A stretch of DNA of 40,984 bases from positions 1 through 40,984 of the forward strand of contig NW_021835324.1 in assembly GCF_006345805.1 (NCBI RefSeq), written 5' to 3'. Of the stretch, positions 29,669 to 30,087 are shown in pieces. How positions within the stretch are numbered: the first letter of the stretch is position 1; every line of letters begins with the position of its first letter. The DNA comes from Octopus sinensis. Taxonomy: Eukaryota. The translations under genes and the position numbers were made by a program. The notes beneath the pieces were generated by a model. That model did no database searches. It was not told the DNA's origin and saw only the letters and a program-made list of their open reading frames with translations.

Positions 29669-30087
29669 TAAGCAACAAGTTGCTTAGCCACATACCGAAA
29701 ATTTAGAAATAGCAGTCAAAGACCACTTATTCCTATTTTCTACAAAACATAGCCACACATATAACATTTACTTGTAACTCACATATGCAAAAAGAAGGAA
29801 AAATAACAAAAAACAAGCAGTCTTCGGTTAGTTGTGGACGTGTTTCTGGGTTAGAATTATAAAGAACTCATTTAAACACATGAGGAATACACTGATGGGA
29901 TTCAACATAATAGAAAGAACAGCTAAGTTCTATAACCACAAAATTAGGGATGAAATTCGACAGGAACGAAATGAAAAAATAAAAAATTTTCACCACCTAG
30001 TTTCCTGGACCATTTGGTTTCTGATTTTAGTTTAGCAAGTAAATTAATAACATATCAGTCGCCAGGTGAAATCGTCTTCAGCAGGAA
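29664..30087 (-). mobile_element. Family P element (hammerhead plus 3' two-hairpin module ending at (TA)n)
   Basis: Hammerhead 30087-30002, conserved module 29742-29664, then ~120 bp of (TA)n. Confidence 0.55.
30002..30087 (-). ncRNA. Type I hammerhead ribozyme motif with long stem II
   Basis: Stem I UUCCUG/CAGGAA; core CUGAAGA; stem II (C.A)GAUUU/AAAUC plus inner UGGCGA/UUGCUA; GAAA; stem III ACC(AAAU)GGU; GUC triplet at 30010-30008. Confidence 0.8.

What the first reader, a model, noticed from the sequence alone, without database searches (positions are those of the whole stretch)
30002..30087. Second long-stem-II hammerhead, best-formed ribozyme candidate in the window
Seen: 6-bp stem I, intact CUGAAGA/GAAA, 3-bp stem III with tetraloop, GUC site and a ~53-nt bipartite stem II; the only defect is a C.A pair at its base. 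Its stems differ entirely from those at 14278, yet both lie upstream of the same structured 3' module. Inference: a diversified family with conserved architecture (hammerhead, spacer, two hairpins, (TA)n).
Basis: partly seen in the sequence, partly recalled or inferred. Interest (0 to 1): 0.75.

Follow-up and report, generated by a model that had tools for sequence, protein, structure and literature searches.

The report
Hammerhead of a Penelope-type retrozyme repeat
This is one ageing copy of a hammerhead-shaped, likely self-cutting RNA motif inside a small protein-less repeat with hundreds of copies in a likely octopus genome; its odd C.A mismatch is the family norm, and the structured tail behind it belongs to a different repeat, so it is an ordinary new member of a known kind.

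Summary
The motif is real: all stems, the core and the cut site (30008/30007, minus strand) are as described, and 0 of 200 shuffled windows give one. It belongs to repeat family A, a 487-bp ORF-less unit with at least 222 copies. The copies form partial tandems and inverted arms and end in (TA)n at two zones, as Penelope-like insertions do. Across 51 copies 90% of stem cells pair, and core pair 3-8 runs C-G/U.G/U-A. Two readings fail. (1) The C.A is not a defect of this copy: A precedes GAAA in 96 of 100 listed copies, and the same C.A is already tabulated for a published Penelope-like hammerhead. (2) The downstream module belongs to another family, C, which has its own hammerhead; it is fused here at an AATG microhomology. 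It lies beside 0 of 54 other A loci. Stem III is normally a perfect palindrome, damaged in this copy. Verdict: type I hammerhead of a non-LTR retrozyme / non-autonomous Penelope-like element. Cleavage is untested and no parent element was found. The scan has already reported this class on other DNA of this genome.

The parts
30002..30087 (-). Type I hammerhead motif of family A: stem I 6 bp, CUGAAGA, 1x1 C.A loop, 5-bp proximal helix II, internal loop, distal helix II, GAAA, stem III, GUC cut site 30008/30007
29997..30094 (-). Extended stem I: CUAG 30094-30091 pairs with CUAG 30000-29997 beyond a GUG/A internal loop; 10 of 51 copies show a compensatory U-A to A-U change
29869..30366 (-). One monomer of repeat family A (period 487 bp, no protein match sought or ORF conserved), direct arm of the insertion
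   Evidence: joints going back 487
30783..30861 (+). Inverted, truncated second arm of the same family A insertion
30370..30767 (.). Tandem of a very abundant SINE-like repeat inserted into the family A copy near the arm junction (same repeat as 12944-13311 by eye)
29869..29872 (-). AATG microhomology at the A|C fusion; the 31-nt junction is unique in the genome at up to 1 mismatch
29662..29868 (-). 5'-truncated copy of repeat family C: 3' half of C's own hammerhead (29868-29830), spacer and the two-hairpin module (about 29760-29665)
29542..29664 (.). (TA)n tract at the 3' end of the insertion
14273..14613 (+). Family B copy (young, 98-99% identity, about 559-bp tandem unit); hammerhead with U-A or U.U at the base of helix II and a fixed GUU site; shares the module with C, not with A
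1154..1396 (+). Family D copy; hammerhead 1266-1363 with a 59-nt stem II region and U.U at its base in 15 of 15 copies

Best explanation
The motif is the type I hammerhead of a 487-bp protein-less repeat (family A) that is likely copied around the genome as RNA by the enzyme of a Penelope-like retrotransposon, and its family form is predicted to self-cleave slowly, while this copy is a decayed single monomer fused to an unrelated repeat. Shown: the motif, the family, the insertion shapes, the covariation, the fixed A before GAAA and the fusion. Inferred steps: (1) Tandem source copies are transcribed. (2) The hammerhead cuts after GUC once per unit, helped by pairing of the palindromic stem III between neighbouring units or by protein, and gives unit-length RNA that may circularise. 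(3) A Penelope-type RT/GIY-YIG protein nicks (TA)n and starts reverse transcription at one of two internal sites about 145-160 or about 240 nt downstream of the cut. This gives two 3' ends, partial tandems and inverted 5'-truncated arms. (4) The C after A9 is the usual unpaired nucleotide of Penelope-type hammerheads, G-C is the 10.1-11.1-like pair, and an extra A sits before G12; this is the same thing as a 1x1 loop at the base of helix II. The internal loop after 5 bp likely plays the part of loop 2 and the distal hairpin is an insert. (5) At this locus a 5'-truncated family C cDNA was joined to A at AATG, by template switch or by microhomology joining.
For: Family: 40 of 40 scored candidates match over query 35-532 or most of it at 82-100% (4174 candidates); 222 exact matches to a 24-nt motif, control 0. 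Insertion shape: partial tandems and inverted arms. Of 67 unit-start matches, 23 end in (TA)n within 45 nt, 19 at 95-140 nt and 25 continue or end otherwise. Structure: 90.1% of 1424 cells pair, against 25-47% for slid controls; 29 cells change on both sides against a shuffled mean of 15.5 (0/500). Core: pair 3-8 is CG 24, UG 17, UA 9, CA 1, gap 1 of 52, and N7 is free (A29 G17 U3 C3). A 72%-identical relative has GACUU/AAGUC in place of GAUUU/AAAUC. The nucleotide after A9 varies (C33 A11 U6 G1 gap 1 of 52) while the A before GAAA does not (96 of 100 listed). Literature matches: extra nucleotide between 9 and 10.1, palindromic helix III, U3-A8 variant (PMC4209133); retrozymes and an active U.U-based hammerhead (PMC7229834); two RT start sites (PMC11167929); C.A then G-C in PLE-X1_cBra (PMC8557442 File S2). 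Young Penelope-like ORFs of 900-1120 aa exist in the genome.
Against: No cleavage was tested. No autonomous element sharing sequence with A was found among loci of three Penelope-like families, so the mobilising enzyme is unassigned. The covariation is carried by related subfamilies: all U3 copies fall in one unresolved clade on a tree of flanks (44 of 51 copies). Two of five covariation measures do not exceed the shuffles (217/500 and 273/500), 24 of 51 copies have an A.A mismatch in stem I, and RNAalifold recovers only 8 pairs. The hammerhead fold is the minimum-energy fold in few copies (median gap 3.6 kcal/mol). At most two hammerhead-bearing units were seen at a locus; long arrays were not.
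Confidence: 0.82

Rival explanations
1. One reading: one diversified family with the architecture hammerhead, spacer, two-hairpin module, (TA)n, whose stems differ between members.
For: The module is shared by B and C (43 bp, 77%). All four window families put a hammerhead 40-250 nt upstream of a (TA)n end. A has its own hairpin just before its long end.
Against: 0 of 54 other A loci have the module; 0 of 34 other C loci have unit A adjoining; the junction is unique and falls inside C's own hammerhead (21 of 24 C loci keep its 5' half); no blastn similarity between A and B or C beyond 11 nt.
Confidence: 0.05
2. Unit A is the pseudo-LTR of an unfound autonomous Penelope-like element, and the copies are its 5'-truncated insertions.
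For: Retrozymes resemble pseudo-LTRs in Xenopus (bioRxiv 10.64898/2026.07.22.740005). Stem III resembles that of Hydra-1_oBim. Most insertions are 5'-truncated.
Against: The unit repeats head-to-tail with a 487-bp period and no ORF between units. No shared upstream ORF was seen in 55 loci with 1.5-kb flanks; the two GIY-YIG fragments beside A copies belong to separate elements with their own hammerheads.
Confidence: 0.1
3. The hammerhead is a non-catalytic relic carried by a repeat that spreads without needing it.
For: Hammerhead cleavage was not needed for insertion in vitro by the anole element PAc (PMC11167929). Half the copies have U3 and many have a stem I mismatch. Family B has a fixed GUU site.
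Against: Subfamily changes fall on tolerated positions (N7, the 3-8 pair, loops, compensated stems), while U4, A6, G12-A15.1 and U16.1 stay in 49-54 of 52-55 rows.
Confidence: 0.12

Closest known systems
Metazoan non-LTR retrozymes (Cervera and de la Pena 2020, PMC7229834, parts 2-3 of the text read; Li, Clavereau and Pollet 2026, bioRxiv 10.64898/2026.07.22.740005, abstract, results part 1 and discussion read; its supplements are closed)
   Same: ORF-less repeat of a few hundred bp with one type I hammerhead per unit, tandem arrangement, low GC; a mismatch at the base of helix II is known (axolotl HHR_Amex2, U.U, 22% cleavage as monomer, better as dimer); proposed mobilisation by Penelope-like elements.
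   Different: 487 bp is above the 170-400 nt of the 2020 paper but within the 51-972 bp of the 2026 preprint. Copies are dispersed 1-2.3-mers with inverted arms in (TA)n, not long arrays. Helix II region is 40-55 nt. Circular RNA is not shown.
Hammerheads of Penelope-like elements (Cervera and de la Pena 2014, PMC4209133, parts 1-2 read; Craig et al. 2021, PMC8557442, passages, section 11 and supplement part 2 with File S2 read)
   Same: Unpaired nucleotide after A9, palindromic helix III, U3-A8 core variant, (TA)n targets, partial tandems with inverted 5'-truncated copies. File S2 lists C.A followed by G-C in PLE-X1_cBra and U.U in many Hydra-clade elements.
   Different: No RT/EN ORF in the unit; helix II much longer than in most File S2 rows; no sequence link to the three autonomous families tested.
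Anole Poseidon element PAc (Frangieh et al. 2024, PMC11167929, parts 1-2 read)
   Same: Two internal RT start sites that give two 3' ends; AT-rich targets; hammerhead upstream of the start sites.
   Different: PAc is autonomous, its two ends are 30-40 bp apart (about 90 here), and its hammerhead was tested (cleaves only with protein).
Natural core variants of hammerheads (Perreault et al. 2011, PMC3088659, passages read)
   Same: Helix II can start with a U10.1.U11.1 mismatch.
   Different: Those passages say U.U is the best-tolerated mismatch; C.A was not among the passages seen, so its rate is open.

Membership tests
Type I hammerhead ribozyme | Core CUGANGA / GAAA / NUH around three helices, open helix I | tested here: met
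Type I hammerhead ribozyme | Helices and the 3-8 pair kept across homologues | tested here: met
   events are few because copies are related
Type I hammerhead ribozyme | G10.1-C11.1 (R-Y) pair flush against A9 and G12 | tested here: not met
   1x1 loop, C.A in 31 of 51 copies, A.A 8, U-A 6; the same departure is in published hammerheads
Type I hammerhead ribozyme | Match to an Rfam hammerhead model | tested here: not met
   2 matches at E<=10, neither a hammerhead; the long helix II is the likely reason (inference)
Type I hammerhead ribozyme | Self-cleavage 3' of H17 | not testable with these tools
   needs an in vitro assay
Type I hammerhead ribozyme | Loop 1 - loop 2 tertiary contact | not tested
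   internal loops exist in helix I (after 6 bp) and helix II (after 5 bp); contact not modelled
Non-LTR retrozyme | Short ORF-less unit with one type I hammerhead, in tandem | tested here: met
   period 487, partial tandems up to about 2.3 units
Non-LTR retrozyme | Expressed as unit-length linear and circular RNA | tested here: inconclusive
   only assembled contigs of runs guessed to be RNA; tandem DNA explains the back-joints equally
Penelope-like element (non-autonomous derivative) | Partial tandem plus inverted 5'-truncated arm, two alternative 3' ends, (TA)n target | tested here: met
Penelope-like element (non-autonomous derivative) | Sequence homology to the pseudo-LTR of an autonomous element | tested here: inconclusive
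   none among three families (75 loci); the genome holds many more families
Autonomous Penelope-like element | RT and GIY-YIG ORF between pseudo-LTRs | tested here: not met
   no such ORF within or between units
   0 of 54 A loci, 0 of 34 C loci, unique junction

The most novel reading that the evidence does not exclude
The 1x1 loop at the base of helix II is a selected brake or protein switch, not tolerated damage. It recurs in unrelated hammerhead families of this genome (C.A in A, C and L008; U.U in B, D and L066; A.C in L146; A.A in L018) and keeps the ribozyme slow until a Penelope-type protein or a neighbouring unit engages it, so that multi-unit RNAs survive long enough to be copied. 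Family A would then be a natural allelic series (C.A/A.A/U-A at helix II; C-G, U.G, U-A at 3-8) for testing why retrozymes keep their hammerheads.
Probability: 0.2. Interest if true: 0.5.

Novelty: new member of a known kind. Interest (0 to 1): 0.24.

Why it matters
By itself little: the class is published and this scan has met it repeatedly in this genome. Family A is still a handy natural series. It holds a stepwise C3-G8, U3.G8, U3-A8 core change and a fixed extra A before GAAA within one family, so cleavage rates of natural alleles can test how far a mobile-element hammerhead may be attenuated. It also shows that descriptors and Rfam models that demand a short helix II with a flush closing pair miss such families. 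The locus is a caution that Penelope-type fusions create false 'modular' architectures.

Tried and rejected
Rfam: whole window at E<=5 (150 of 237 rows shown, almost all microRNA models on microsatellites) and 29850-30400: no hammerhead hit. Parent element: GIY-YIG searches from L057 and L026, five fetched stretches and a motif from the published Hydra-1_oBim hammerhead (126 matches, control 1) gave three Penelope-like families, none homologous to A outside co-inserted A copies. Pfam named neither long ORF. Expression: no RNA holder listed. Contigs of runs guessed to be RNA (X16, X17, X18, X24) cover the family; some join end to start with a 487-nt period and some bridge the cut site. Contigs cannot show strand, ends or level, and tandem DNA copies explain the joints, so this is not used as evidence. 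RNAalifold on the 51 copies found only the distal helix II and stem III. The scan's index held no look-alike of unit A by sequence and nothing near this place. Lunse et al. 2017 (PMC5785218) is not held; it is known here only through a review passage (PMC6765202). Paper searches for cephalopod or octopus hammerheads gave no study of this family: only Craig 2021 and a count of 235 hammerhead-1 hits in giant squid (PMC6962438, passage). Subscription papers, Repbase and the preprint's supplements were not searchable. Rows dropped: 5 duplicate loci, and 3 hybrid or truncated rows from the core tally; 7 of 51 copies without upstream homology from the tree.

Full report
Observation. The minus strand at 30087-30002 reads as a type I hammerhead exactly as described. 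A descriptor scan found three hammerhead-like motifs in the window (core starts 1276+, 14282+, 30081-). Two pass the loose cut-off, against none in 200 block-wise dinucleotide shuffles. The stretch alone does not prefer the hammerhead fold (z -0.98); that fold lies 2.9 kcal/mol above the minimum. Rfam does not detect it.

Host. The genome is 2.72 Gb in 13,516 contigs. A 20-nt motif of the published Octopus Hydra-1 hammerhead matches 126 places, control 1, so it is likely an octopus. I go no further than that.

The family. Searching 29660-30400 returned 40 scored places of 4174 candidates. They match query 35-532 or most of it (window 30366-29869) at 82-100% and none extends into the module. 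The unit has a 487-bp period and occurs as partial tandems, often with an inverted 5'-truncated arm. A 24-nt motif from its hammerhead has 222 exact matches, control 0. Of 67 matches to the unit start, 23 run into (TA)n within 45 nt, 19 at 95-140 nt and 25 continue or end otherwise. These shapes are those described for Penelope-like elements (PMC8557442 passages), and two internal RT start sites explain two ends in the anole element PAc (PMC11167929). The window insertion itself is two-armed: an inverted piece at 30783-30861, a later SINE-like tandem at 30370-30767, then the direct monomer.

Is it selected as a hammerhead? On 51 copies, 90.1% of cells pair against 25-47% for slid partners. Cells with changes on both sides number 29 against a shuffled mean of 15.5 (0/500), but two pair-counting measures do not beat the shuffles. 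Core pair 3-8 is CG 24, UG 17, UA 9, CA 1, gap 1 of 52 rows; N7 takes all four bases; U4, A6, A9 and G12-A15.1 are nearly fixed. All U3 copies fall in one unresolved clade on a tree built from flanks, so this is probably one stepwise history, not many events. Stem I extends by four pairs beyond an internal loop, with a U-A to A-U swap in 10 copies. A 72%-identical relative has a compensated proximal helix II. Against: 24 of 51 copies have an A.A mismatch in stem I, and the hammerhead is the minimum-energy fold only in some copies (gap 0 in L012 and L025, median 3.6 kcal/mol).

The C.A pair. It is the family state. With that position left free, 96 of the 100 listed matches have A, 3 G and 1 T. 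The base opposite it varies: C 33, A 11, U 6, G 1, gap 1 of 52. This fits the unpaired nucleotide between A9 and G10.1 that marks Penelope-type hammerheads (PMC4209133), followed by a G-C pair (46 of 51) and an extra A before G12. Similar 1x1 loops occur in family C (A in 20 of 21), B (U-A 20, U.U 20, U.C 1) and D (U.U 15 of 15), and in single by-catch hammerheads of other families, beside others with a flush pair. It is in print: File S2 of PMC8557442 lists C.A then G-C for PLE-X1_cBra and U.U for many Hydra-clade elements; axolotl HHR_Amex2 cleaves with U.U there (PMC7229834); U10.1.U11.1 occurs naturally and is the best-tolerated mismatch (PMC3088659 passage). The window copy's private faults lie elsewhere. 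Stem III is a perfect 10-nt palindrome in 22 of the 29 copies picked by similarity, and only this copy has the central change (1 of 55 rows). That weakens the predicted self-dimer from -13.0 to -7.3 kcal/mol. The copy is a lone monomer on a tip of about 0.06 changes per site.

The module. 29868-29662 is its own family, C (2339 candidates, 40 scored, 86-100%). Upstream of it, 21 of 24 other loci carry the 5' half of a different hammerhead with a 30-nt helix II region and stem III ACGCGU. The window keeps only that hammerhead's 3' half, and unit A is joined inside its helix II at a shared AATG. The 31-nt junction occurs once in the genome at up to one mismatch (limited power at 10% divergence). 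The module is absent from 54 of 54 other A loci, apart from hits confined to the TA tract and at most 20 nt beside it. Unit A adjoins none of 34 other C loci. B and C share the module (43 bp, 77%); A shares nothing with them beyond 11 nt. Three other C copies break within a few bases of the same point (L032, L046, L055), so the site may be prone to truncation. Template switching and later microhomology joining cannot be told apart.

Mechanism. Most likely A is a non-autonomous passenger of a Penelope-type RT/endonuclease. Transcripts of tandem source copies would be cut once per unit, slowly and helped by stem III dimer formation or protein, and may circularise. They would be reverse-transcribed from either of two internal sites into nicked (TA)n. 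Family, insertion shapes and covariation are shown; transcription, cleavage, circles and the enzyme are inferred. Young Penelope-like ORFs are abundant, one family with its own U3-A8 hammerhead, but none of three families tested shares sequence with A. Public runs gave only contigs and are uninformative.

Comparison and novelty. It works like, and meets the testable criteria of, the metazoan non-LTR retrozymes (PMC7229834), now argued to be non-autonomous Penelope-like derivatives (bioRxiv 10.64898/2026.07.22.740005). Earlier notes of this scan report the same class on other DNA of this genome, and long helices II with a basal C.A in another octopus-like genome. No note matched unit A by sequence, and three paper searches found no study of it. 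It is a new member of a known kind; interest 0.24.

Noticed in passing
window 1154-1396 (+), hammerhead 1266-1363: A third hammerhead family (D) in the window: 59-nt helix II region, U.U at its base, palindromic stem III, GUA site; 1641 candidates, 40 scored at 93-100%; two 3' ends into (TA)n.
   Followed up: partly
window 14273-14613 (+); L057-L075: Family B is very young (98-99%), in about 559-bp tandems, with a fixed GUU cut triplet in 41 of 41 parsed copies and a 50:50 split between U-A and U.U at the base of helix II.
   Followed up: partly
L032, L046, L055 and window 29868: Four independent family C copies are 5'-truncated at the same ATG/AATG inside helix II of their hammerhead, a possible RT stall or joining hot spot.
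   Followed up: partly
L026 and L147-L176: A young Penelope-like family (CxxC motifs before GIY-YIG, Neptune-like by the description in PMC8557442; open frames to 784 aa) carries a U3-A8 hammerhead with a canonical G-C closing pair at 30 places in the fetched loci.
   Followed up: partly
L142-L146 (G000:C15, C29, C1, C16, C24): A very young, abundant GIY-YIG retroelement with open frames of 900-1120 aa, no Pfam hit at E<=0.001 and no hammerhead found by my descriptor in its 3' repeat.
   Followed up: partly
L018, L022, L027, L051, L066, L071, L093, L102, L146, L008: By-catch: at least eight further hammerhead types with 15-64-nt helix II regions and palindromic stems III within about 175 fetched loci; this genome is very rich in such motifs.
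   Followed up: no
L025:1625-1756 in runs X16 and X24: In two runs guessed to be RNA, one family A variant with an 11-nt shorter helix II dominates the contigs over the hammerhead, while it is minor in a DNA run; possibly one transcribed subfamily.
   Followed up: no
window 30370-30767 and 12944-13311: Tandem copies of a very abundant SINE-like repeat (184-bp period at 12944); I recall it as an octopus SINE, not checked by any search.
   Followed up: no
window 32520-36105: Long purine-skewed (GAT)n/(TGG)n mosaic with higher-order periods of 82-176 bp.
   Followed up: no
window 22411-22824 (+) and 28624-28968 (-): Short open frames that look like decayed non-LTR retrotransposon RT fragments (by eye).
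   Followed up: no
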